Shown here one piece after another: positions 6,631 through 50,731 of a stretch of DNA of 64,000 nucleotides. The DNA is from a virus: the IMG/VR virus record IMGVR_UViG_3300018080_000014, positions 1-64,000 of that record; one strand, 5' to 3'. The notes below the pieces were generated by a model that made no database searches, had not been told where the DNA came from, and was given only the letters and a program-made list of their open reading frames with translations. The stretch's first letter is position 1; each line of letters opens with the position of its first letter. The translations under genes were made by a program, and so were the position numbers.

Positions 6631-7804
6631 CCCGCTCATGATAAATTCCAGCTATTCTCTCCAGATGCGATTGCTAATAAACAATCTGGATGCAGGATGG
6701 CATTATGTACAAAATGGTGTGCGGGTTGGGCAGAAAGAAGAAATACGAGACGAGAATGGTGAAATACTGGCAACGTTGTACCCCGGCGAAAGCAAGAGTG
6801 CATCGTACAGCCCGGACAAGGTATTCAAGATGGCTAATGAACTTGACCCTGACGTTGTATTCCTGTACGAAGATCCACAACACCTGTACAAGTACATGAC
6901 GTTCCAGAGAAAAACACCACACGCAGCAATATGCTGGTTCCCGTGGGACAACGATGAATGGAATGGTAGCATAGGAGCGTTCTTGACTTCATGCGAGGAT
7001 TCCGATTACGTGCCGATAGGAATATCACGGGCAACGCAAAAATTATGCCACGATAATGGGCATGATATAGGACAGATATATAACATCGTGGATGACGTGT
7101 TCAGACCATTGGATCCAACACTCGTCAACGCGGAGAAAGCATCCCTTCTTAGGCAGTTCGAATTGCCACGGGATAGAAAAATACTCCTGTACGTTGGAAG
7201 GCTTGCACCACGAAAGAACATAGAATCCCTGCTTTCCATGGCACAAAGCCTGAGAAGGAAACGGGAAGATTTCGTGCTGTTCATGCATTGCGATATAAAT
7301 GATCCGGGGTCCAGCTGCGACCTGCGAACAGAAATCATCACGCGTGGAATGGTTGAGTATGTCAGGGTAAACATCATAGAATGGGATAAAGGCGTGTCCT
7401 CGCAGGAACTCAACATGCTTTACAATTGCTGCGACGTGTACGTGTCGGCCAGTGGTGGTGAGGGATTCGGATTGCCGGTATGTGAAGCGGGTGCGTGTGG
7501 AAAAACATTCGTCGTACCTGATAACACGACTGGACCTGAATTCTCGCAGAACGGGAAGCACGGGTTACTTGCGCCAAATGGTGGGTATTACAGGGTGCTC
7601 GATTACATCAACCGCCCGTTCGTTGACCATGATGCCATGGCAGAGCAGGTGGATTACTTGTTGGACCACAAGAATCTTGCATGGAGGATGGGGGAATCAT
7701 TCAGGAAATGGGTGCAGGCGAATTGTTCCGTTAAAGTAGTGATGGAACAATTCAAGCACGAAATGGAGCAATTTGTACCACTGGAATGCACGGTGAAAAC
7801 ATAA
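6608..7804 (+). CDS. GT4 family glycosyltransferase
   Basis: LYVGRLAPRKN, LYNCCDVYVSASGGEGFGLPVCEAGACG (E-x7-E motif). Confidence 0.9.
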   Translation: MKILACSDPLMINSSYSLQMRLLINNLDAGWHYVQNGVRVGQKEEIRDENGEILATLYPGESKSASYSPDKVFKMANELDPDVVFLYEDPQHLYKYMTFQRKTPHAAICWFPWDNDEWNGSIGAFLTSCEDSDYVPIGISRATQKLCHDNGHDIGQIYNIVDDVFRPLDPTLVNAEKASLLRQFELPRDRKILLYVGRLAPRKNIESLLSMAQSLRRKREDFVLFMHCDINDPGSSCDLRTEIITRGMVEYVRVNIIEWDKGVSSQELNMLYNCCDVYVSASGGEGFGLPVCEAGACGKTFVVPDNTTGPEFSQNGKHGLLAPNGGYYRVLDYINRPFVDHDAMAEQVDYLLDHKNLAWRMGESFRKWVQANCSVKVVMEQFKHEMEQFVPLECTVKT

Positions 7805-8601
7805 TGGTAAAATACGTTAAACCGAGTTTCGAGATACTGGCAATGACGCATGGCGTTGCTGGTGCGTTTATAGGTAAATTGGAAGGGTATCCGATGATCC
7901 CTTTTAAATTAATAGAAGCTGCTGGAAGGACGTGCTACAAGAGCGAGGAAAAGATAAGCGAGAAATCTGCCGAGAAGTTCGTGGAGATGATAGTAGGACG
8001 TGGACACCTGAGCGTGATAGAGCACGTTAACGTCACGGTGAAGTTCGTGTGCAACCGCGGGTTCACCCACGAGCTGGTGCGGCACAGGCTAGCAGCTTAT
8101 TCCCAAGAAAGCACGAGGTACTGTGATTATGGTAGCGGGAAACATGGTAAGGAAATTACGGTGATAGACCAGCGTGCCACGATCATCAGGGAAATGCTTC
8201 CAAAGTTCGATTTCGAGGATTGGGGAATCGAAACCATAAGGGAATATCTCAAGAGAGAGGTCGGCATGACCGACATGAGATCCCTTCCTGTATGGAAAGA
8301 TGTGGATGTTGGACACGCATTCAGGGCCGTTGGTGACTGGATAACGGCGATGGAAAAAGCGGAGAGGTTGTACCTGAGCATGCGGGAATGGGGCGCACCT
8401 CCACAAGTGGCACGTGGTGTTCTTCCCATTGACGTGAAGACGGAGATAGTTATGACCGCAAACCTTCGAGAATGGGGCCACGTCTTCAAGATGCGGGCAA
8501 GCCCGAAAGCACATCCAAACATGCAAGAATTGATGTACCCGTTACTGGAGAGATTCAGGCAGTTATTTCCCGGCGTGTACGATAACTTGGAGGTATTCTG
8601 A
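7804..8601 (+). CDS. thyX: FAD-dependent thymidylate synthase
   Basis: AGRTCY, GHLSVIEH, THELVRHRLAAYSQESTRY signature, ARGVLP, NLREW. Confidence 0.95.
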   Translation: MVKYVKPSFEILAMTHGVAGAFIGKLEGYPMIPFKLIEAAGRTCYKSEEKISEKSAEKFVEMIVGRGHLSVIEHVNVTVKFVCNRGFTHELVRHRLAAYSQESTRYCDYGSGKHGKEITVIDQRATIIREMLPKFDFEDWGIETIREYLKREVGMTDMRSLPVWKDVDVGHAFRAVGDWITAMEKAERLYLSMREWGAPPQVARGVLPIDVKTEIVMTANLREWGHVFKMRASPKAHPNMQELMYPLLERFRQLFPGVYDNLEVF

Positions 8602-29211: not shown

Positions 29212-31250
29212 ATGCCATACCTTGGATGTATGAAAAATACCTTTATACCAGCATAATCGTCAGTGAGTTTTATGCTATGCACGTACATGTACGTTTCTTC
29301 AAGCACGGGCTTGTCTATCGAGTAAAAATCACCGTCATTGTAGGATGTCCATATTGGAACGGAATCGTTGTTTCCAATAAAATACACGATACCTTCCTCT
29401 ATATCAAGTTCCCTGTTACCACGCACGAACATCACGTGGAAAGGACTCTGGTAACTGCTGCTAAACATCTCGAACTTGAACTCGCAACTATATGGCAGAG
29501 ACACCTTCAACGATCCATCTTGCATCACGTCCCCGTACACTGAACATATCGTGATGCCCTTGTACAGCATTTGCTCGAATATCTCCTGCCTGTTTTGTGG
29601 AGATACAACAAACACGTCCTGCAACGATTCGTCATATTCAAGGGATATTCCAAACTTTAAAAGCACGAGCATTTCCCTGCCCCTATCTGTCAAATGTTTG
29701 GATGCCTCACCAACCTTGGAAGAGAAGTCGTACTTCGATTCCGTGGAATACCTTGTCGCGGTCGTGCTTGACGTGTACTTCATTTCCTGTGTGAGTAAGT
29801 ATCCAGCTGGTTTTGAATTATCTGGCAAGTATGAAGGAGGCACTATCGTGTCAACATCCTTGCACTCGCTTATTGCGGTGGTATTCGTGGGTCCGAAAAT
29901 GCTTTGGTTTACCATGTTTGAAATGCCAAATAACCTCGATGCTATTGGATCAGATGAAATCAACTTTCCAAGTCCAAACTGCCACATGTAATACGATGTC
30001 CACCCGAGCCTCCAATAGAAATTGATCCTTGATAGCATTTTCTCCCCGCTTGCCCTGTCATCGGGTACCGTACCGGTGTAAAAATGCGCGACCTGCGTGG
30101 AACCGTACACGTCTATCGATTGCTTGACGATGGATTCCTTTATCGCTTCTTCCTCCTTTTCCAGCATATCGGCAACTTCATCCTCGGTAAATCCCGTTGC
30201 CACTCCTTCACTAAGCAATTCCTTGATTGCCCTACCAGTCTCACCACCTGACGTGTAAGGCTTCCCCTGATCATCGAACTTTATGGACGTGTCTGCCGTG
30301 TTGATTCCCCTGACGTTGTATCTCTTGATCAGCGTGGTTTTTGATTCCGATGTTTCGAGCAAGAATCTTTTTGGCGGCTCTATGAACCGCCTGAGAAGGA
30401 GATGCACCGTGATGCCATCCTTTCCATTCTCTGCCACGTTTTTCCTCCATATGAGTGTCTGGATGAACATCTCCCTGAATATTTCTTCCTCGCATATCAC
30501 GTCGAAGGTCTTGTGCATCAATATGCGCTCGTTCCTGACCATCTTGCCCGTTTCCTTGAAGTACGTGCCAGATCTAAACTTGTCGGCCGTGAGCGTCACA
30601 TCAGATGCTCCAGTAACCTTTTGGCTGGTCTTCAACTGGTATAGTGGGTTTCCACCATAACTACCAAGTTGAACAGGACCGCCAATATTTTGCAGGATTG
30701 CCCCGGAAGGACCGGTAGTATACGTGACTGCTGATTGGACCACTTGTGGAATGATGATACCATTGCTTCCTATCGCATTGTCTACCGTTCCTTGTAACAA
30801 TGTCCTGCCTGTTTCAGATTTAGGTGTCCGGTCTTCCACGGGCCTGCGCTTGAATGTCGCGGTACCACGCAGGTACAGCTGTTCGAGCGCGTGTAACCAC
30901 AAGAATCTTGTTGGGCCATCTATGCGTATATCAATCCTGATGGACATGTTGTCGCCTTCTTGGAAGGCCATGAAATGTCCACCAATAGATCTGAAATTAA
31001 GCAACTTATCAGACTTGGCAACTTCAATATTCTGCACGGCATATAAAGGAAACACGTGCAGCATAATGTCTGGAGTAAGCTGCAATCTTCCACCAGCAGC
31101 AGCATCCGCCAAGGCAAGTGCAGACCATGTTGCTATTTTACCAAGCAATCCTCCTACTTCATTGAGACTAAAACTCGCTGGCATTATGTTTCCAAATTTC
31201 CATACTGGCGTACTAAGTATTGTACCAGATACCGCTGCGCTTATTGCCAT
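29208..31250 (-). CDS. tail-associated protein (tube initiator-like candidate)
   Basis: 680-aa ORF between tape-measure candidate and hub. Confidence 0.55.
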   Translation of the reverse strand: MAISAAVSGTILSTPVWKFGNIMPASFSLNEVGGLLGKIATWSALALADAAAGGRLQLTPDIMLHVFPLYAVQNIEVAKSDKLLNFRSIGGHFMAFQEGDNMSIRIDIRIDGPTRFLWLHALEQLYLRGTATFKRRPVEDRTPKSETGRTLLQGTVDNAIGSNGIIIPQVVQSAVTYTTGPSGAILQNIGGPVQLGSYGGNPLYQLKTSQKVTGASDVTLTADKFRSGTYFKETGKMVRNERILMHKTFDVICEEEIFREMFIQTLIWRKNVAENGKDGITVHLLLRRFIEPPKRFLLETSESKTTLIKRYNVRGINTADTSIKFDDQGKPYTSGGETGRAIKELLSEGVATGFTEDEVADMLEKEEEAIKESIVKQSIDVYGSTQVAHFYTGTVPDDRASGEKMLSRINFYWRLGWTSYYMWQFGLGKLISSDPIASRLFGISNMVNQSIFGPTNTTAISECKDVDTIVPPSYLPDNSKPAGYLLTQEMKYTSSTTATRYSTESKYDFSSKVGEASKHLTDRGREMLVLLKFGISLEYDESLQDVFVVSPQNRQEIFEQMLYKGITICSVYGDVMQDGSLKVSLPYSCEFKFEMFSSSYQSPFHVMFVRGNRELDIEEGIVYFIGNNDSVPIWTSYNDGDFYSIDKPVLEETYMYVHSIKLTDDYAGIKVFFIHPRYGI

Positions 31251-32797
31251 TAAAATTCATCATCTCCTCTTTTCAACACGGACTTGTACTTTATGCTCTC
31301 TTCATCTGATGATTCCAATATACTTTTTATTGCTTGCTTTACCATGTCAATTATTCCAGAGCGTATCTTGGTATTGTTATCTTCAAGCATTTCCTTGAAG
31401 TTTATCCTCGATTCTTCCAGCTTCTCTTCCACGATTGTCGTGTTATGTTCCGTGATGCGCTCCACGATGCTCTCCCTGTCTATCTCGGATATTTCCCTTA
31501 TCTCAGGCGTGGCCTCTTCCACGAACCGCTCCACGACTTCAGTTGTCCTACCAAACTGGAATGGTGTAGTTCTTGTTTCTATTGGCACTTTCTTGCCAAA
31601 TAGTTCCACGGCTTCTGGTTTTGCCGTCACGGCGTCAATTATCATCTCCACTCTCTGGCCGAGCTGTGATATTAATTCCATGGATGCGACGACATCCCTT
31701 GAAAGATCTGAAAACGAGTAGGAACTCGAATCCTTGAGATCGTAAATGGAATCCTGCACGCTGGTAAAGTATTCATCAATGTGTTCCATGGGGAATGGAT
31801 CAGGTGCGTTGTCGATGATGATATTCCCGATACCACCAATGGCCAGCTTTAGTTCCGTGAACCGTGGGACAAGTAATTCTATTTCTCGCGATATTGCTGC
31901 TAATTCCTGCTGATATTGTGGCAAGTTTTCTATGCTCGTGGAAATCTCACCAAGTTCCTCGTCATATTCTGGCAATCCTTCTATGCTATCAATTATTTCT
32001 TGGAATTTATCAGCATAATCTGGAATATCTATGTCCTTTATGTTCCTCTTTATGGTTTCCAACCTGCCAGTGTAATCCTTTATTTTTATGTTGCTTATTT
32101 TCCTGCGTATAGTATCTAGCCTATCCGTGTAATCCGGTATATCTATATCATCTACCTTGTTGCCAAGCTCGTCAAACTCACCATCGTATACCGGAATGTC
32201 TATCGCACCTATCTGCCTTGATATTTCCTCAAGTTCTGCGTGGTATCTTGGAATCTTACCGAACTTTCCGGCTATTTCTTCGAGTTGTTCCGTGTAATCC
32301 TTTGGTTGTGGCACGTTTGCTATGTCTTCCGATAATATCTCGAACTCGTCGGAATAATCCGGTATTTCTATCCCTTCTATCTTGCTACCAAGATTGCTTA
32401 TCCTCGTTGCCACGCCACGTATCTTGTTCTTTATGTCCTGCGCACTTTCCAGTATCTTGAGCCTCACGGATGCCACGCTTGATTCAAGTGCTACCAGTAT
32501 ATCATCCTTTATTTCCGTGAAATCAGTTTCCTCTCCCACTACCTCGTTGATCGTGCCAAGTGTTTCCATCATTCCCTTGACATCACCAAGAACGGTTTCC
32601 ATCCTCTCGTTTATCTGCGTGACGCCCGCCTCCTCCAGCCCAACCCGTATCTCGATTTCCTTCTTCCTATCGAGATCCTTGAATTGCTTTGACTTGGTAA
32701 TCTTGTCTATCTGTTGTAGCGATTTTACCAGCGCATTGAGATTACCCGGATCAGGGCTATCAACTTTCAGGGACACGCTTGTTTCGTCTATGGACAT
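31250..32797 (-). CDS. tape-measure-like helical repeat protein
   Basis: Position after tube/chaperone; about nine 17-19-aa I-P-D-Y-type repeats. Confidence 0.55.
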   Translation of the reverse strand: MSIDETSVSLKVDSPDPGNLNALVKSLQQIDKITKSKQFKDLDRKKEIEIRVGLEEAGVTQINERMETVLGDVKGMMETLGTINEVVGEETDFTEIKDDILVALESSVASVRLKILESAQDIKNKIRGVATRISNLGSKIEGIEIPDYSDEFEILSEDIANVPQPKDYTEQLEEIAGKFGKIPRYHAELEEISRQIGAIDIPVYDGEFDELGNKVDDIDIPDYTDRLDTIRRKISNIKIKDYTGRLETIKRNIKDIDIPDYADKFQEIIDSIEGLPEYDEELGEISTSIENLPQYQQELAAISREIELLVPRFTELKLAIGGIGNIIIDNAPDPFPMEHIDEYFTSVQDSIYDLKDSSSYSFSDLSRDVVASMELISQLGQRVEMIIDAVTAKPEAVELFGKKVPIETRTTPFQFGRTTEVVERFVEEATPEIREISEIDRESIVERITEHNTTIVEEKLEESRINFKEMLEDNNTKIRSGIIDMVKQAIKSILESSDEESIKYKSVLKRGDDEF

Positions 32798-41151: not shown

Positions 41152-41170
41152 GCATATATAAACCTTGCTA
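41152..41170 (-). promoter_or_regulatory. TATA promoter candidate for capsid genes
   Basis: Minus strand GCAAGGTTTATATATGC about 25 nt upstream of the scaffold start. Confidence 0.5.
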
Positions 41171-42873: not shown

Positions 42874-44364
42874 TCATTCCGCCTTTGTACTTGCTCGTTC
42901 CTGTCCACCATTGATTCCGCCATTCATGCTCATCTTGGTGGAATTCATTTCCTCGAATTTTGATTGGAGTTTCTTCGCGACTGCTGGATCCAGCTCATCC
43001 ATCACTGATCCCCATATGCCTTGAAGGATCTGGCGTGGTTCGTTCCAATCCTCGTAGAACATCTTATCAGCAGCGATGCCGACCGCTTCCACGAGATCTT
43101 TCACCTTCTCGATTATTGTTGGTGGAAATCTTATGGAAAATTCACTTCTCCGTGGTGTCCTCCCGTTTCTTGGCAGGAGGATGTTACGGAAGAAGGGTTC
43201 AAGCCTGTTCTTGTACTTGCCGATGAGGCCCTGTATGTACCTGACTTGTTGCTGATCGAGCGATTTGGATGTTGCCAGTTCTGTACCAGATGTAGAACGA
43301 AGTCCCATGGAACCCATGAGACCAAGCATTATTTGTTCGTCATACAGGTGGATAGCATCTATAAATATCTGTGAACTCTTTGCCGTGCTCTTGGAGAGTA
43401 TTTCCACCTTGTTGTAACCGGGAGTTGCCATGGCACCAAAGTTGCGCATGTTTATCAGGGATTCGAGCAGCATGTCACGTTCACGCTTGAACTCCTCGTC
43501 ATCTTCTGGCATGTACGAGTTGGGGTCGCCCGTGTACCCGACCTTTATTGGTGACCACTCGCGCTCCGCGAAATTTCTCATGTACCACCGCACCCACCGC
43601 TTGTCGGCCATGATGTCGAGCAATGCTGATACCGGGGGCCGCCGGAAGAACTCGAATTCCATCATGGTGTCAGGTTTATTTGGAACGACGATGTATTCCA
43701 TCTGTGTCTCGCCAGCATATAGCTGGAGAACGCTGCTGTTGATGTCGGTGATTGATTTTATCATCGGAGCACGTGATTTCACCCAGTTAAAGAATCCAGA
43801 TGACGTGTAAAACGTCTTGTTGAGCTTCCTTGCTGCTTGGACATAACATTCATATCCAGCTACTGGATCCTTTACTTTTGCTACGGTAAGTGGATCCAAT
43901 CTTGCTAAGTCGATGCCATACTCGTTATCATCGCTGTAGAGTATTCTCCATACGCTCTTGTTGTGTACATGGTTATCAACGAGGGTGTCAGATGCGAGAT
44001 CGTATATGTCTTGGTTGCTCTCGTTTATGCGCTCGCACCACCCTTCCACGATTTCCTTGTCCTCGGGATTGTCGCTGTTCACCTTTATCCCGGTTGAAAA
44101 TATCGTATATGCCAGTATATACGTCCACGATATTGCTATGGGTGACCTCCAGAAGCAAATCTCCCTGTTCGTGGCGGTATCGGGTATATCATTAATGTAC
44201 AGCTTGCGGAGCGTGTCGTTTATTGGTGACATCTTCAGTATTAAATCCAAGTATGTCACCAAAGATGGCGCTCCTGCCAGTACTGTTGGTTTTCTGTATA
44301 TCTTCGTGTTTAAGGAGAGACTCCTTCCAGGATTACTTCCACGCATCACTATCATGTTGTTCAC
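42874..44364 (-). CDS. portal protein
   Basis: 496 aa directly downstream of TerL; LARLDPLTV pattern. Confidence 0.75.
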   Translation of the reverse strand: MNNMIVMRGSNPGRSLSLNTKIYRKPTVLAGAPSLVTYLDLILKMSPINDTLRKLYINDIPDTATNREICFWRSPIAISWTYILAYTIFSTGIKVNSDNPEDKEIVEGWCERINESNQDIYDLASDTLVDNHVHNKSVWRILYSDDNEYGIDLARLDPLTVAKVKDPVAGYECYVQAARKLNKTFYTSSGFFNWVKSRAPMIKSITDINSSVLQLYAGETQMEYIVVPNKPDTMMEFEFFRRPPVSALLDIMADKRWVRWYMRNFAEREWSPIKVGYTGDPNSYMPEDDEEFKRERDMLLESLINMRNFGAMATPGYNKVEILSKSTAKSSQIFIDAIHLYDEQIMLGLMGSMGLRSTSGTELATSKSLDQQQVRYIQGLIGKYKNRLEPFFRNILLPRNGRTPRRSEFSIRFPPTIIEKVKDLVEAVGIAADKMFYEDWNEPRQILQGIWGSVMDELDPAVAKKLQSKFEEMNSTKMSMNGGINGGQERASTKAE

Positions 44365-46190
44365 GCAAGTCTTGTTGCCAGAGATACAAATGGCTTCTTT
44401 CTACACGCCCAGTACGCCAGCGCATGGGCGATTACCCTGTCATCGTGTGCCGATTGGGTCCCGTACTTTGGTTTCTTGCTTTCCGTTATGTCGTAACCGA
44501 ACTTGAGCATTTCATCCCAAAAGTCCCTTACCTCTGGAAGATCATACTGTGGTATGGCGATGTCGCCTCTTTTGGTATATCCTTCCACGAGATTGTCCAC
44601 GAGATCAATCTTGGATTGCGTGTCGAAGATGAATCCCTTGTGTCTCTTCTTGGAATACAACCCGGTGCTCTTGTCCGGCTTGTTATCGAATATTTTCGTT
44701 CGCAGGCGCTCCCCGGGTGGCATCCTTACCTCGATCTCGTCTATCCTGCCGTTCGGTTTCGCTACCTGTATTACTATGCGACCAAGCCTTTTAAGTATTT
44801 GCAGATCATTCCACATATCATCCATGACAGGATCTCCTACTCCCGTGGCATCAGGGACAATCCATACTGGATTAAACAATGCGACTACTTGTAAAAACTT
44901 TGGTCGTATGTCAACGTAATCGAGATTGCTATATTGTCCACCAATGGTGAACATGTAATCCCACAACGCTTTTTCTTGTTTCCAGTCATAATGCATCACG
45001 TTAAGGGCGCTAGCATCATGCGTCTTGCCAAAATCCATGCCTATGACGTAGTTCTTGATATTCTTTCTCGGGCTTGGCACGTTGTTGAGACCCATCATCA
45101 CCGCGCGCTCCAGTAGTTCCATGCTGAACACGGCGGAACCTTCCTTGATGATTTCGCCAAGAATCTCCTGCCTTGCTTTTGGAGTATTGCCGGCAAGCCA
45201 CAACTCGTACTCGATTTCTTCACGCGTCTTCCACGAGCAGGTCCACGGATCGACTGGAACTACAGTGATAGCCCCGACACCATACATCCACCTGTTCCCG
45301 CCGCAGACGGGACAGTTTGGTAACTTCATTGGTAGAGCATGTGTGCCAAACTTGGTGATGAACTGGCGCATGAGTTGTGATTCCTGCTTGAATGTTGCTT
45401 GGCATACTTTGCCGTTCACGACGTTTGCGCATACTATCGGGCGAGTTTCCATGCCCATGGTATAGTGCCTGATGAATTCCCCACGATAACCAGCAGGGGT
45501 AGAAAGTAGAATCCAGCGTTTTCCGACACGCCTGAATGTTTTCAGCACGACATCAGTCATGATCTCCTCATCTATCCACGCGGCTTCGTCCACCAGCCCG
45601 AGGTGCAGTGAACGGCCACGGACGCCTCTCGACGCAGGGTAAGCAGTGGCGGTGACCCGGCCGCCAGATTTTATTATTTTTGTAACATTGCTGGACTCTA
45701 CCATGTAGCCAAATGGTGAGTTTTCGACAAAGATTTTTATCTTGTCCATTATTTCCTTGGCACCATCCTCGTTGATGGAGAACGTGCCAATGCGGTATCG
45801 CTTGTTCATGAAGATGAACGCGCATGCTGCTGCTATTGCCACGGCAGTGGTCTTGCCAAACTGGCGAGGCCATATCATCACGATCTCTTTCGGGCGGTCA
45901 CCTTCTGGTATTACCCACGGGTACTGGTAAATATTGTACCCGAATTGTATGGAACGGATTGCCGCTTTCTGTGATTCTTCAAGGACGAGGGGCATGTCCT
46001 CGTCTTCCGGGTTTGGCAGCCAGTATTCTGCAAAAGATGCCCAGTCGAACAACGATTGTTGGAACTTTATGAATTCTGTTTCATCCTTTTCCGGGTCTAT
46101 GCCCATCGTCTCGAATTGTTCCCATAAGAACTTGGTGTCACATCCAGATGATATGTCTCCTCCACCCATTCCAGCAGGCACTGCGCTCAT
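44361..46190 (-). CDS. terL: terminase large subunit
   Basis: WPRQFGKT, RGRS, LVDEA, LSTP; nuclease motifs GMDFGKTHD, DATGVG, HDDRVIA. Confidence 0.95.
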   Translation of the reverse strand: MSAVPAGMGGGDISSGCDTKFLWEQFETMGIDPEKDETEFIKFQQSLFDWASFAEYWLPNPEDEDMPLVLEESQKAAIRSIQFGYNIYQYPWVIPEGDRPKEIVMIWPRQFGKTTAVAIAAACAFIFMNKRYRIGTFSINEDGAKEIMDKIKIFVENSPFGYMVESSNVTKIIKSGGRVTATAYPASRGVRGRSLHLGLVDEAAWIDEEIMTDVVLKTFRRVGKRWILLSTPAGYRGEFIRHYTMGMETRPIVCANVVNGKVCQATFKQESQLMRQFITKFGTHALPMKLPNCPVCGGNRWMYGVGAITVVPVDPWTCSWKTREEIEYELWLAGNTPKARQEILGEIIKEGSAVFSMELLERAVMMGLNNVPSPRKNIKNYVIGMDFGKTHDASALNVMHYDWKQEKALWDYMFTIGGQYSNLDYVDIRPKFLQVVALFNPVWIVPDATGVGDPVMDDMWNDLQILKRLGRIVIQVAKPNGRIDEIEVRMPPGERLRTKIFDNKPDKSTGLYSKKRHKGFIFDTQSKIDLVDNLVEGYTKRGDIAIPQYDLPEVRDFWDEMLKFGYDITESKKPKYGTQSAHDDRVIAHALAYWACRKKPFVSLATRLA

Positions 46191-47715: not shown

Positions 47716-48053
47716 TCACCAACGTAGCATTCGACTTCGACACTTGCCGGATCGGTATCGGCAGTGTGGACACCAACCAGCGAGTCAACCTTGCAGCGCG
47801 CTCCCCATGGCAGTTGCGACGTTATTGTTCTGCCGAGCGATGGGTTGTTTGGCATGTTGTTCAGGGACACGCGAATCGAGGAATCCGTTACCACCTCCAC
47901 TTCCACAGTCACGATCTGCTTGTCGCCAAAATACGCGGAGGCTTCCGCGAGGAGATCAACGGGCGTCGAGGATACCGAGTAGCGGGCGAAATGATATGAT
48001 TTGCCGTCAAGGGGGATTGAGGCGTTCTTGACGGGATGGACGAGATTTGCCAT
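47712..48053 (-). CDS. small beta-rich protein, first gene of the late operon
   Basis: 113 aa, probably leaderless, about 25 nt below a TATA box. Confidence 0.6.
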   Translation of the reverse strand: MANLVHPVKNASIPLDGKSYHFARYSVSSTPVDLLAEASAYFGDKQIVTVEVEVVTDSSIRVSLNNMPNNPSLGRTITSQLPWGARCKVDSLVGVHTADTDPASVEVECYVGE

Positions 48054-48073: not shown

Positions 48074-48092
48074 CCTATTTAAACTTTTCGAC
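48074..48092 (-). promoter_or_regulatory. late operon BRE-TATA promoter
   Basis: Minus strand GTCGAAAAGTTTAAATAGG. Confidence 0.7.
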
Positions 48093-48193
48093 ACTTATCC
48101 ACGGCACGCGCGGGTTGGGGGGGGACTAACATGCCCTGGCGTCAAAAAGTAATTCTTTTGTCTAAATTTCGCGGAAAAAGAAAAAGAGTGAGT

Positions 48194-48493
48194 TTAGTGA
48201 AAGATCGGGAGACGCTTGTTAACACAAGTCTCAAGATCACAAAAAGAATCGTTAGAATTGTCGTCAGTGAGGAGTATGTAGTAGTACGAGTAGATCTCAT
48301 CAAATCTGAAGCTCTGACAGTGATTCTTGTAGAGATCTAGGATAGATTCGACAGAAGCTGTAGCTCCTCGGGCGTTGTTAATACGTTCGTTATCAACGCG
48401 GATTACAATGACGTCGTACTCGCTATCGTAGTGCGTTTTCACGACTTGACTATGAAAGTGCAAATTGTAGAAGTTTTTGTGTTCGGGATGCAT
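48194..48493 (-). CDS. hypothetical protein, Trp-free (pre-early candidate)
   Basis: AGGTGA RBS, 99 aa, followed by an oligo-T tract. Confidence 0.65.
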   Translation of the reverse strand: MHPEHKNFYNLHFHSQVVKTHYDSEYDVIVIRVDNERINNARGATASVESILDLYKNHCQSFRFDEIYSYYYILLTDDNSNDSFCDLETCVNKRLPIFH

Positions 48494-48504
48494 ATTTTTC
48501 ACCT

Positions 48505-48540
48505 TTTTTGAAAAAAAATAAAAAATGTGAGCGAAAGCTC
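48505..48540 (-). terminator. hairpin plus oligo-T terminator
   Basis: Minus strand GAGC-TTTC-GCTC hairpin followed by TTTTTATTTTTTTT. Confidence 0.5.
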
Positions 48541-49465
48541 ACTGATACTCAGCTAGCTGAGCGAGGTACTTCTCGTGATACTCAGCTTTGTGAGAAATAA
48601 TGTCCTTGACGAGGTTCTCGTAGTACGAGAAGCCTCCGCGCTTCAGAGCCTTTTGATCAAGCTTCTTGATTTTCTCCTCGATCTTCTTTGAACCTAGCTC
48701 GCTCAAAATAGCGACACGAGCGGGTTTCTGAGCCTCGTCGAAGAGAAATCGTGTCGATTTCATAACGTTCAATAACGCGGCGATCCCGTTCATTTTTTTC
48801 TCTTTGAGGTAGAAATCTGCAAAGAGATAGAAGAGCTCGTTAAAATCATCACCTCCCGCTAGGAACGGGTTGATCGAGGCTAACCCGTCGCTTGAAGCGA
48901 GCTTCTTTTTCTGTTCCTCTAATTTCGCTATGTTATCTTTGATTTTCTCGCTCGGCTTTTTCTCCGCGAGCTTCTCCTGCATCTTCTTGAGAAGATCTGT
49001 ATCTTTTTTCTCAGCTACCTCAATTGTGAGCTGCATTAGCTCACTGAGGTGTTTCTCATCTAATTTCTCAGCTTTCTTTAAAGAATCTTGAAGCTTCTTG
49101 ATTTTCTCGTCGATCTTGTCGATCTTCTTCGCGGTTTCCTCGTCATGTGCAACTAGGACGAGCTTCACAGCTCTAAAGAGGAGCCTTTCGTAGTCAGTCA
49201 CTATTGTGACGTACCCCTTCTTTAAAGCGGGTTCTACGTGAGCTAGCGCTAGTATTTCAAGCGTTGAAGCTACAGAATCCGCGATTTCTTTCTTGTCCTC
49301 GCTCGTGAAAAGCTTGACAAGATTCTCGTTGAACACGTTGATGTTCGATATGTCAACGTGATTCTTCTTTGAATCAAGAGCGCTCTTGAAGTCCTCAGAG
49401 CTGATCTTGTATAGATCTTCAACGTGATTGAAGATCTTTTTCGTCTTTTTGTTTTTTTTCGACAT
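48539..49465 (-). CDS. K/E-rich coiled-coil protein, Trp- and Cys-free (pre-early candidate)
   Basis: GAGGT RBS before ATG 49465; 308 aa. Confidence 0.75.
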   Translation of the reverse strand: MSKKNKKTKKIFNHVEDLYKISSEDFKSALDSKKNHVDISNINVFNENLVKLFTSEDKKEIADSVASTLEILALAHVEPALKKGYVTIVTDYERLLFRAVKLVLVAHDEETAKKIDKIDEKIKKLQDSLKKAEKLDEKHLSELMQLTIEVAEKKDTDLLKKMQEKLAEKKPSEKIKDNIAKLEEQKKKLASSDGLASINPFLAGGDDFNELFYLFADFYLKEKKMNGIAALLNVMKSTRFLFDEAQKPARVAILSELGSKKIEEKIKKLDQKALKRGGFSYYENLVKDIISHKAEYHEKYLAQLAEYQ

Positions 49466-49591
49466 TTCAGTTGTAACCTCTTGTTTTTGTGAGGTATGAG
49501 CGAGATCTCTTGTTTCCTCTAAGTACAGACGTTCCCGAATGACTCCGAGGCGATTTCTAGCGTTCCCGCTCATACGTACAAGTAGTAGAGA

Positions 49592-49610
49592 CGACTTATA
49601 AACCTTGGCT
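49592..49610 (-). promoter_or_regulatory. TATA promoter for the island operon
   Basis: Minus strand GCCAAGGTTTATAAGTC, followed about 20 nt later by a paired leader (49494-49575). Confidence 0.6.
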
Positions 49611-49721
49611 AGCGTTTCCGCGGTTCTAGCGAACGTACACGAGTGTTTTAGACATAGGCGTACAAGAGATTAAAGAGGAGCCTCTAAAACGTGCACCAGA
49701 TGCATTTAGAGGCGCCCTGGC

Positions 49722-49796
49722 GAGGAGAATGAAGCCAGCTATGAGATCTTCAAATACGAGATCTCAGAGGAGAATGACGCCCGTGATGAGATCTTC
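49722..49796. repeat. two 30-bp imperfect direct repeats
   Basis: GAGGAGAATGAnGCCnnnnATGAGATCTTC at 49722 and 49767. Confidence 0.75.
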
Positions 49797-49843
49797 GTTC
49801 TAGCTCGCCCGTTTAACGAGGTCTCAGAATGACTGATCTCGGA

Positions 49844-50000
49844 CTTATTTTTCATAAGCTGGTGACTTATGAGATATAAGCCTATATTTCATAAGTGGAT
49901 CGCTTATGTCAAATAAGCTTATACTGGATAAGTAAAAATCGATTCCGGCTTTTGAGATATAAGCTTATATCGGATAAGCGATCAGCTTATACTGGATAAG
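49844..50000. repeat. array of eight CTTAT-N5-ATAAG palindromes
   Basis: Starts 49844, 49866, 49881, 49903, 49918, 49949, 49964, 49986 (two with one mismatch). Confidence 0.9.
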
Positions 50001-50036: not shown

Positions 50037-50410
50037 GCCGGAGCGCCATGGCCGGAATGTTGAGCGCCAGCATATCCTATGCCGGATCGCTTGGATCCAT
50101 TCCTGTATCCAGTGCCCACGCCGGAGAGTGGGATATGCACATGCCGGAACCCACGTGCCGGTATCATTTTCCAGCATCCTCCTTCCCGTGCCGGCCCATG
50201 GCATCTCCCGTGCCAATGCACGATCCGGCAGGGTGTTACTACACCGGCATACCCCACCACCATATCCCACGCACGCCAATTCTTTTGCCGGCCAGTCAAT
50301 GTGTGCGCGCCGGATCGAAAAAAATGAGTTTGGACATAAACAGCCGGCTGGCTTTCAGGAGTTTCATGCCAAACAGGCTACTCCGTTAAAACCATTGGCG
50401 GCCCCGGCCA
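50037..50410. repeat. GCCGG/CCGGC-dense non-coding block
   Basis: 13 CCGG sites counted, all reading GCCGG on at least one strand. Confidence 0.8.
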
Positions 50411-50731
50411 TGGCTTTAATAAAACAACACATCCAGCAAGCGCTCCAGTAAACAGCCTAAACAGCGCCAGAAACAAATGAAACGCATGTTCGGACGCTTG
50501 CTCCGGGGTCCCCACCTAACAACTTAGGTAAACAGCCGGCACGAAACTTAGGGGATTTCCGAAGCCGTTTCCCGGGATCTCGGTATAACCCTGCCGGGTG
50601 GGGACGCGGATCTGGCCCAGCTACTAGGATCATGTTCGGAGGTCAGCACGAAATGCCATTAATAAATAATTAAATAAAGGATATTTTAAACCTTCTCCGA
50701 AGTAGTTATACTGGATAAGTCAGATCACATG

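What the first reader, a model, noticed from the sequence alone, without database searches (positions are those of the whole stretch)
48539..49465. Trp/Cys-free 308-aa coiled-coil protein as candidate anti-defence or host-takeover factor
Seen: a K/E/L-rich helical protein with its own TATA promoter, RBS and terminator, and the main cargo of the CCA-free island. I recognise no family motif. Inference: by analogy with T7 Ocr and T5 A1/A2, a gene kept free of a host-recognised motif probably acts before the rest of the genome is exposed. It could be an undescribed inhibitor of PT-, BREX- or CRISPR-type defence.
Basis: inference. Interest (0 to 1): 0.7.

Follow-up and report, generated by a model that had tools for sequence, protein, structure and literature searches.

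The report
Orphan gene in CCA-free viral cassette
A real but completely unrelated-to-anything helical protein is the main product of a small self-contained gene cassette, in an uncultured archaeal-type tailed virus, that has been written without a single CCA or TGG; it is probably a first-expressed accessory factor, but what it does is not shown.

Summary
The ORF is real (minus strand 48539-49465, 308 aa; an in-frame ATG at 49573 gives 344 aa). It has no Trp or Cys, is K/L/E-rich and is modelled as all-helical. It has a TATA-like box, a Shine-Dalgarno site and a hairpin/T-run terminator. It fills most of a 1.47-kb stretch with no CCA or TGG on either strand. That gap is 67 times the genome's mean spacing; 54 control viral loci reach at most 13 times. 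Synonymous-codon permutation shows the ban acts on the DNA, so the lack of Trp is a consequence, not a protein feature. The protein is an orphan: no hit in Pfam, PHROGs, NCBIfam, PADLOC, PDB sequences, 5.8 billion proteins or 1.84 billion representatives. It is basic (pI 8.9), so it is not an Ocr-type acidic DNA mimic. Only about 40-80 central residues show heptads. The virus (88.6 kb) has archaeal-type RFC, PolB and promoters. Best reading (about 0.38): an immediate-early, host-directed factor in a word-free leader cassette, as in the T5/T7 leading regions. Timing, genome end and target are untested. Anti-defence activity is possible but has no direct support. This scan has noted similar word-free islands in at least five other phage genomes.

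The parts
48539..49465 (-). CDS of the orphan protein, 308-aa form (P0001); stop TGA at 48541-48539
   Evidence: The frame has 2 stops in 488 codons against 24-36 in the other five frames. There is no CCA/TGG, against 10.4 expected under synonymous permutation.
49466..49573 (-). Optional 36-codon N-terminal extension (344-aa form), or a 5' leader if translation starts at 49465
   Evidence: The ATG at 49573 lies 29 nt from the first T of the TATA-like box. The late-operon ATG at 48053 has the same geometry (30 nt). This suggests a leaderless start.
49476..49482 (-). Shine-Dalgarno-like AAGAGGT, 10 nt before the ATG at 49465
   Evidence: Read from the sequence.
49596..49602 (-). TATA-like box TTTATAA of the cassette promoter (context CCAAGG-TTTATAAG)
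   Evidence: The first CCA upstream (49608-49606 on the minus strand) is 3 nt from the box, so the word-free stretch begins at the promoter.
48510..48542 (-). Terminator-like hairpin (48542-48527) plus T-run, between the two ORFs
   Evidence: consensus scan.: -9.5 kcal/mol, z -3.7, 0 of 200 shuffles fold as well.
48194..48502 (-). Second orphan ORF of the cassette (102 aa; 99 aa from the ATG), acidic (pI 5.7), W-free, with GGTGA 5 nt before its ATG
   Evidence: It has 0 CCA/TGG against 4.5 expected (P(0)=0.001 over 3000 permutations). It has no homologue other than itself.
48144..48186 (-). Three T5 runs after the 102-aa ORF, a likely archaeal-type termination zone. The first CCA (48139-48137 on the minus strand) is 4 nt beyond the last run.
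   Evidence: Read from the sequence.
48140..49605 (.). CCA/TGG-free island, which is the whole two-gene cassette

Best explanation
P0001 is a genuine, lineage-specific, basic, all-alpha protein with a short central heptad segment. It is the first and main product of a two-gene cassette that runs from its own promoter to its own terminator. The cassette sits between the late (virion) operon and a repeat-rich non-coding block in an archaeal-type tailed virus. It has been purged of the DNA word CCA/TGG, and also of AGCA/TGCT.

The most likely reason is that this small unit must work as word-free DNA at the very start of infection. It would then be a leader or pre-early unit of the kind known from the T5 first-step-transfer DNA and the T7-like leading region. 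[quoted passage not shown]

Shown: the gene is real; the cassette is self-contained; the ban is at DNA level and absolute; the protein has no relatives; it is basic and helical.

Inferred: early timing; that the island enters or acts first; that the protein acts on the host. Which agent reads the word is open. It could be a host nuclease or PAM-reading system, or the virus's own DNA-marking enzymes.
For: The ban is real and at DNA level:
- 0 CCA/TGG against 10.4 expected under synonymous permutation (min 3 in 5000) and 21.4 under the virus's codon usage (min 8).
- The 344-aa form and the 102-aa ORF behave alike.
- z is -5.7 (permutation) and -7.4 (genome codon usage), the most depleted 3-mer. 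AGCA/TGCT is 0 against 10.2.
- In a greedy set of 114 ORFs (mean 47, sd 11 CCA+TGG per kb) the two island ORFs have 0; among the other 112 the lowest values are 16.5 and 20.8.

The ban matches one unit. It starts 3 nt before the TATA-like box and ends 4 nt after the last T-run.

The island is the most atypical tetranucleotide window in the genome: 0.63 against a median of 0.25.

Placement: it sits next to a non-coding region of about 1.2 kb with 30-nt direct repeats, a palindrome array and a GCCGG-rich block. T5/BF23 have a similar repeat-rich border between first- and second-step DNA (PMC10644984).

Precedent that only sites in the leading DNA matter: PMC10644984 and PMC12455610.

No structural or late-protein match was found in Pfam, PHROGs, NCBIfam or PDB sequences.
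Against: - No evidence places a genome end at the island. All three assembly lengths I saw (88,646, 88,664 and 88,553) look like circular closures of one sequence, and the 123-nt terminal repeat may be an assembler overlap.
- No RNA run holds the stretch, so timing is unknown.
- The cassette promoter lacks the 20-nt consensus shared by six early promoters on the plus strand. It looks more like the one at 41162 inside the virion module.
- The cassette lies directly upstream of the late operon and in the same orientation.
- The protein has no recognisable enzymatic or binding motif.
- A ban set only by host defence does not predict that the same word is the most enriched (z 16.8) and most evenly spaced (CV z -4.2) outside the island. 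Part of that enrichment is a general CA/TG excess at codon junctions: ATG 15.8, CAC 13.1, GCA 12.7, CAA 11.4.
- The island is rich in CTAG, AGCT and GATC, which the rest of the genome has at lower density. It is therefore not generally site-poor.
Confidence: 0.38

Rival explanations
1. Mark-free zone. The virus's own enzymes mark CCA/TGG all over the genome, for instance its two N6/N4-type DNA methyltransferases. The cassette is kept unmarkable. P0001 would then be the product that must be made from, or act on, ordinary DNA, for example an adaptor that lets host transcription use the marked early promoters. This overlaps with the best explanation on timing but differs on who reads the word.
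For: - Outside the island CCA/TGG is the most over-represented trinucleotide: O/E 1.58 by base composition, top of 32.
- In 58 genes it occurs 2949 times against 2508 under synonymous permutation (z 16.8, top of 32). It is also the most evenly spaced (CV 0.821 against 0.892, z -4.2, lowest of 32), and its largest gap is 139 against 191.
- The virus has two PF01555 methylases.
- All 6 early-class promoters carry CCA at a fixed place in their upstream element.
- Other agents of this scan reached the same kind of reading for word-free islands in other phages. These are leads, not evidence.
Against: - The specificity of the methylases is unknown.
- Four other CA/TG-containing words are almost as enriched (z 11-16). 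The excess sits in only one of the two variable codon phases for each word: NCC|ANN (494 against 350) and NNT|GGN (609 against 341). It may therefore be codon-pair bias rather than selection for a DNA word.
- No modification data exist.
Confidence: 0.2
2. Ordinary moron. The cassette is a laterally acquired accessory unit. Its odd word usage was inherited from a donor, and its product has some unrelated accessory role, such as superinfection exclusion or host physiology. The ban has no function in this virus.
For: - It has its own promoter and terminator.
- Its GC is about 0.43 against 0.52 in the flanks.
- Its codon usage is foreign: Ala GCT 15 of 26 against 16% genome-wide, and GCA 2 of 26 against 40%.
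- It is the most atypical tetranucleotide window.
- Both ORFs are orphans.
Against: - No donor was found in phages, plasmids or viral contigs.
- An absolute ban over 1.47 kb, non-coding parts included, still needs a selective cause somewhere.
- The ban ends within 3-4 nt of the promoter box and the last T-run.
Confidence: 0.17
3. DNA-binding or architectural protein. It would act on the neighbouring repeat block as an origin, packaging or promoter-switch factor.
For: - The protein is basic (pI 8.9) with a lysine-rich N-terminus (MSKKNKKTKK).
- Its gene lies about 250-450 nt from arrays of 15-bp palindromes and direct repeats.
- The half-site word CTTA/TAAG is depleted inside the cassette: 1 against 9.1.
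Against: No HTH, RHH, zinc-ribbon or other DNA-binding family was detected. This reading also does not explain the CCA/TGG ban.
Confidence: 0.12
4. Late assembly or virion-internal protein: a scaffold-like or ejected internal protein, co-regulated with the virion operon.
For: - It has the same orientation as the late operon and lies directly upstream of it.
- Its promoter core (AAGGTTTATA) resembles the one at 41162 in the virion module.
- A helical, charged, W/C-free make-up is common in scaffolds (recalled).
Against: - It is separated from the late operon by its own terminators, and the late operon has a separate promoter at 48083.
- It is not between the portal and capsid genes.
- It has no PHROG head or scaffold hit.
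- Another W/C-free 515-aa virion-module ORF has a normal word density, 62 sites. A scaffold-like make-up therefore does not explain the ban.
Confidence: 0.08

Closest known systems
Pre-early (first-step-transfer) region of phage T5/BF23 and its products A1/A2
   Same: A short block of genes is free of defence recognition sites and borders a long non-coding region rich in direct and inverted repeats. The products act before the rest of the genome is exposed (PMC10644984, passages).
   Different: There is no sequence similarity to any T5 protein or PHROG. The block has 1.5 kb and two genes, not about 10 kb. A location in a terminal repeat or at a genome end is not shown. The host is probably archaeal. 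The ban concerns one 3-nt word and is absolute.
T7 Ocr (gene 0.3) and the leading region of Autographiviridae
   Same: It would be the first gene behind a promoter in a region whose motif content decides restriction sensitivity (PMC12455610, abstract).
   Different: Ocr is a small, very acidic DNA mimic (recalled). P0001 has 308-344 aa and is basic (pI 8.9, net +6). It has no homology to Ocr, and a leading-end position is not shown.
Phage morons (self-contained accessory transcription units)
   Same: It has its own promoter and terminator, an atypical composition, and a position between functional modules.
   Different: Morons are not known to carry an absolute ban on a trinucleotide. No donor was found.
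Word-free islands noted by this scan in other phage genomes (e1-3409407, e1-6055517, e1-6124227, e1-228575, e1-6116496)
   Same: A self-contained early-looking unit lacks one short DNA word on both strands, and the rest of the genome carries the word normally or in excess (AI notes, unchecked by me).
   Different: The word differs (CCA/TGG) and so does the virus type (archaeal-type replication genes). Here no hypermodification genes were seen beyond two methylases.

Membership tests
Ocr-type DNA-mimic anti-restriction proteins | Strongly acidic surface that mimics DNA (low pI) | tested here: not met
   pI is 8.9 and net charge +6 at pH 7.
Ocr-type DNA-mimic anti-restriction proteins | Sequence or profile similarity to Ocr/ArdA-like families | tested here: not met
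   There is no Pfam, PHROG or NCBIfam hit at E<=0.1 other than coiled-coil noise.
T5-like pre-early (FST) genes | Encoded on DNA free of the relevant recognition sites | tested here: met
   There are 0 CCA/TGG in 1469 nt, 67 times the mean spacing. The agent that reads the word is unknown.
T5-like pre-early (FST) genes | Bordered by a long non-coding region rich in direct and inverted repeats | tested here: met
   The region 49.6-50.8 kb has a 30-nt direct repeat, a palindrome array and a GCCGG-rich block.
T5-like pre-early (FST) genes | Located in the terminal repeat, at the first-entering end of the virion DNA | not testable with these tools
   Only contigs were available, not raw reads. The assemblies close as circles.
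T5-like pre-early (FST) genes | Homology to A1, A2 or other FST products | tested here: not met
   There is no PHROG or Pfam hit and no tblastn hit in 50,697 phage records.
Coiled-coil proteins | Extended heptad periodicity with hydrophobic a/d positions | tested here: inconclusive
   My own heptad score is clean in one register for about residues 106-147 and weaker for 169-190. The rest scores as short helices. No calibrated coiled-coil predictor was available.
Phage moron | Own promoter and terminator, with composition unlike the flanks | tested here: met
Capsid scaffolding protein | Gene lies within the head module (between the portal/protease and the major capsid gene), with profile similarity | tested here: not met
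   The gene lies upstream of the terminase genes behind its own terminators. It has no PHROG head or packaging hit.
Known defence-system components (PADLOC) | Profile match | tested here: not met
   0 families matched for either cassette protein.

The most novel reading that the evidence does not exclude
The virus uses CCA/TGG as a genome-wide self-mark, written by its own methyltransferases as the DNA is copied. It keeps one cassette unmarkable. P0001, made from this only ordinary piece of DNA, would be the immediate-early switch that lets the host's TBP/TFB/RNA polymerase use the marked early promoters, each of which carries CCA in its conserved upstream element. This would be a new class of archaeal-virus transcription adaptor. 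It would also be the first archaeal example of a word-coded temporal programme.
Probability: 0.1. Interest if true: 0.85.

Novelty: new variant of a known kind. Interest (0 to 1): 0.55.

Why it matters
If the cassette is a leader unit, this would carry the rule that only the first-entering DNA has to be site-free from T5- and T7-like coliphages to an archaeal-type tailed virus. It would also single out one orphan protein as the product the virus most needs at the start of infection, which makes it a concrete candidate for a new takeover or anti-defence activity in archaea, where few are known. The absolute ban further shows how a DNA-level rule can shape a protein. With no Trp, few Pro, Gly and Met, and certain dipeptides forbidden, the composition is pushed towards a K/E/L-rich helical one. 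That is a caution against reading 'Trp-free' as a protein adaptation.

Tried and rejected
Homology:
- The search for homologous proteins found only the query itself.
- phmmer against 1.84 billion representatives found only itself.
- tblastn against phages and plasmids found nothing.
- blastn of the island against phages found nothing.
- A back-translated scan of viral contigs found no relative: 475 pattern matches, 0 confirmed.
- phmmer of both cassette proteins against all ORFs of at least 50 aa of the virus found no paralogue at E<=10.
- The ESM Atlas gave no usable feature hit. Its structure rows have TM 0.22-0.41 on a pLDDT 0.49 model and are not meaningful.

Structure:
- The AlphaFold2 single-sequence model of P0001 has pLDDT 43.7 and that of the 102-aa ORF 39.9.
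- Both are too poor for fold search, so I did not run it.
- Complex prediction with two copies of P0001 returned 'no answer' (score 0.00). This is no evidence either way.

Expression and ends:
- The look-up of sequencing runs listed no RNA holder.
- Read laying gave contigs only. X2, X3 and X4 are identical to the window across the island, so no polymorphism was available to test selection.
- The contig over 48540-49854 has depth 7.0 in X2. The contig over 48936-49854 has 7.9 in X3. Neighbouring virus contigs have 2.8-4.2.
- This could hint at a terminal repeat or a second genomic context. However, the runs were chosen by words of this very stretch, X2 and X3 share contig boundaries, and depths are low. 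I do not count it.

Relatives for synteny:
- TerL finds only 27-31% identical ATPase-domain relatives (38 viral and 21 metagenome loci).
- The capsid protein finds none.
- No syntenic comparison was therefore possible.

Host:
- NrdD found no relative in genome contigs.
- ThyX found one 45% match, on a 4-kb contig of a MAG labelled Coxiellaceae. This is not informative.

Other:
- Rfam found no family in the window.
- I considered an RNA-level reading, in which the mRNA is immune to a UGG- or CCA-cutting RNase. I set it low because both the word and its complement are absent, and the ban extends a few nt beyond the transcript on both sides.
- I considered a mutational origin by deaminase-like hypermutation. 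TCA/TGA and CTA/TAG are in excess, but an intact 344-codon frame argues for selection.
- I did not find a trinucleotide-free cassette in an archaeal virus in print. This rests only on the searches. Supplementary files were not seen.

Full report
**What the window is.** The window is bases 1-64000 of an 88,646-nt virus record with an exact 123-nt terminal repeat. The repeat length, and the other assembly lengths I saw (88,664; 88,553 with a 30-nt overlap), fit circular closure of one sequence of about 88.5 kb. The real ends of the virion DNA are therefore unknown.

The virus is tailed. A large terminase (44361-46190, minus strand; PF03237 and phrog_2) and a portal (42874-44364) lie just downstream of the finding. 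It also encodes:
- a family B DNA polymerase, two RFC-like AAA+ proteins, and NrdD with a radical-SAM activase;
- ThyX, RNase H and a PD-(D/E)XK nuclease;
- two glycosyltransferases and two PF01555 DNA methylases.

The RFC-like small subunit matches chains named 'replication factor C small subunit' over its full length at E 4.6e-39 (2chq, 1iqp; that they are archaeal is recalled). The T4 clamp loader scores 1.9e-10 and bacterial gamma 3.7e-4. The best polymerase matches include Pyrococcus abyssi and Deep Vent B-family enzymes. Promoter-like boxes are of the TTTA[AT]A[AT] type. Several have an ATG 27-31 nt downstream: 16 such ATGs over 59 boxes, about twice the background per offset. I therefore read the host as archaeal. 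This is likely but not proven: the one cellular ThyX match is uninformative.

**The observation.**
- The ORF lies on the minus strand at 48539-49465 (308 aa, P0001).
- It has no Trp and no Cys. K is 17.5%, L 12.3% and E 10.1%. Pro (1.3%), Gly (2.6%), Met (1.6%) and Arg (1.6%) are low compared with 58 other genes of the virus.
- It is a real gene by sequence statistics. The frame it shares with the next ORF has 2 stops in 488 codons, against 24-36 in the other five frames.
- A TATA-like box (49602-49596), an AAGAGGT site 10 nt before the ATG, and a hairpin plus T-run terminator (48542-48510; -9.5 kcal/mol, z -3.7) are all present.
- An in-frame ATG at 49573 lies 29 nt from the first T of the box. 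The late-operon start (ATG 48053, box at 48083) has the same geometry. A leaderless 344-aa form is therefore equally possible. Gene callers chose 308 aa on three contigs and 344 aa on one.
- 'Coiled coil' is only partly right. A simple heptad score is clean for about residues 106-147 and weaker for 169-190. The low-confidence model (pLDDT 43.7) shows some 15 helices, not one long rod.

**The island.**
- No CCA occurs between 48099 and 49696, and no TGG between 48137 and 49606.
- The genome has 2048 CCA and 1992 TGG, one word every 22 nt. The 1469-nt gap is 66.9 times the mean and the largest normalised gap of any 3- or 4-mer.
- In 54 unrelated viral loci (665 kb) the largest CCA/TGG-free gap is 13 times the mean, and the largest for any trinucleotide is 18.3 times.
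- In a greedy set of 114 ORFs the mean is 47 words per kb (sd 11). The two island ORFs have none, and the lowest values among the other 112 are 16.5 and 20.8.
- The ban is not a side effect of the protein's make-up. Permuting synonymous codons within P0001 gives 10.4 words on average and never fewer than 3 in 5000 trials. The virus's own codon usage gives 21.4. The 102-aa ORF gives 4.5, with P(0)=0.001.
- Another W/C-free ORF of 515 aa in the virion module has 62 words.
- The causal arrow therefore runs from DNA to protein. TGG is forbidden, so Trp is impossible, and dipeptides such as Met followed by Gly, Ala, Val, Asp or Glu cannot be encoded. The shortage of Pro and Gly may be a further effect (inference). 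This helps to explain the K/E/L-rich helical make-up.
- A second word, AGCA/TGCT, is also absent (0 against 10.2, z -4.1).
- The word-free stretch begins 3 nt upstream of the TATA-like box and ends 4 nt after the last T-run behind the 102-aa ORF. It is thus exactly one promoter-to-terminator cassette.
- The cassette has lower GC (about 0.43 against 0.52), foreign codon usage, and the most atypical tetranucleotide signature in the genome.

**What the protein is.** It is an orphan.
- No Pfam, PHROG, NCBIfam or PADLOC family matched, and no PDB sequence.
- No relative turned up among 5.8 billion clustered proteins or 1.84 billion representatives read by phmmer.
- Nothing matched in phage or plasmid records or in viral contigs.
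- It has no paralogue in the virus.
- The 102-aa neighbour is an orphan too.
- P0001 is basic (pI 8.9, net +6) with a lysine-rich N-terminus. This rules out an Ocr-like acidic DNA mimic.
- Structure prediction failed for both proteins, and the homodimer job gave no verdict.

**What the rest of the genome says about the word.** Outside the island CCA/TGG is the most over-represented trinucleotide (O/E 1.58) and the most evenly spaced (CV 0.838, lowest of 32).

Against synonymous permutation of 58 genes it occurs 2949 times against 2508 (z 16.8, top of 32). Its CV is 0.821 against 0.892 (z -4.2, lowest of 32), and its largest gap is 139 against 191. Something therefore seems to favour the word everywhere except in the cassette.

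Two cautions apply:
- Four other CA/TG-containing words are nearly as enriched (z 11-16).
- The excess sits at particular codon junctions: NCC|ANN (494 against 350) and NNT|GGN (609 against 341). The other two variable phases are flat. Codon-pair bias could therefore explain much of it.

**Mechanism.** An absolute, strand-symmetric ban confined to one small unit calls for an agent that reads CCA/TGG in double-stranded DNA, and for a reason why only this unit must escape it.

The documented case is leading DNA. T5-like phages resist R-M, CRISPR and Ssp defences provided the sites are absent from the first-step-transfer DNA. That DNA is bordered by a repeat-rich non-coding region thought to stop injection (PMC10644984, passages). 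In Autographiviridae the first-injected region decides type I R-M sensitivity and often carries anti-defence genes (PMC12455610, abstract).

Here the cassette adjoins a gene-poor block of about 1.2 kb. This block holds a 30-nt direct repeat, an array of CTTAT-N5-ATAAG palindromes, a GCCGG-rich stretch and an AT-rich tract, and the early operon follows it. The layout fits a leader unit, and that is my best reading (0.38).

The main variant (0.20) is that the word is read by the virus's own marking enzymes and the cassette is the one unmarkable piece. Both readings put P0001 at the very start of infection. Neither says what it binds.

The remaining rivals are an ordinary moron, a DNA-binding factor for the repeat block, and a late or virion protein.

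The Ssp idea in particular is weak. The passages I read describe SspE as a sensor of PT on host DNA, and none shows that its nicking needs CCA in the target (PMC9646914, passages).

**Comparison and novelty.** The cassette works like a T5/T7-type leading region, but it is not a member of any known protein family. The defining feature, a position at the first-entering end, could not be tested. This scan has noted comparable word-free islands in at least five other phage genomes; I have not checked those notes. The archaeal-type setting, the word itself and the orphan product are new. My literature searches found no such case in an archaeal virus. I rate it a new variant of a known kind, with interest 0.55. 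The DNA phenomenon is striking and solid. The function of the protein remains inference.

Noticed in passing
window 49844-50000: A dense array of CTTAT-N5-ATAAG-type palindromes and nested inverted repeats lies next to the cassette. A near-copy lies at 50705-50719, just upstream of the first early promoter. The half-site word CTTA/TAAG is depleted inside the cassette (1 against 9.1 expected).
   Followed up: partly
window 50037-50600: This non-coding block is packed with GCCGG/CCGGC words and CCA, with AAACAG repeats. An AT-rich tract follows at 50640-50700. A TATA-like box at 50690 on the minus strand points into the block. It could be an origin, a packaging site or a non-coding RNA. Rfam found nothing.
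   Followed up: partly
window 50745, 53287, 54959, 55616, 58742, 63678 (+ strand): Six promoters share a 20-nt consensus, ACCAACGTAAAGTTTAAATA, and all carry CCA at a fixed place. Two of them (53287, 54959) are followed by a conserved pyrimidine-rich leader that ends in TGGAGCGA. The cassette promoter and the late promoter lack the ACCAA element.
   Followed up: partly
window 48194-49573 (- strand): P0001 and the 102-aa ORF are in the same frame, separated only by the TGA stop and 12 sense codons. Read-through of TGA would fuse them. This may be chance: there is a 1 in 3 chance of a shared frame, and the spacer is short.
   Followed up: partly
window 48540-49854: In two coded runs the contigs over the P0001 gene and its upstream region have about twice the depth of neighbouring contigs of the same virus (7.0 and 7.9 against 2.8-4.2). 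This may hint at a terminal repeat or a second genomic context. It is biased by how the runs were chosen, and the two runs are probably not independent.
   Followed up: no
whole genome, 58 genes outside the island: There is a strong codon-junction bias: NNT|GGN occurs 609 times against 341 and NCC|ANN 494 against 350 under synonymous permutation. CTA, TAA, CCC and ACT are strongly depleted.
   Followed up: partly
window 31250-32797 (- strand): A 515-aa ORF in the tail module also lacks Trp and Cys (K+E 20%) but has a normal CCA/TGG density (62 sites). It may be a tape-measure-like protein.
   Followed up: no
window 49681-49712 and 49722-49796: A perfect 8-bp dyad, CCTCTAAA-N16-TTTAGAGG, lies just upstream of the cassette promoter. 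A 30-nt direct repeat (GAGGAGAATGA...ATGAGATCTTC; two copies 45 nt apart, 87% identical) lies beside it.
   Followed up: no
L063 (genome contig) against window 7786-8598: The only cellular match to the viral ThyX is 45% identical and lies on a 4-kb contig of a MAG labelled Coxiellaceae. It may be a mis-binned viral fragment.
   Followed up: no
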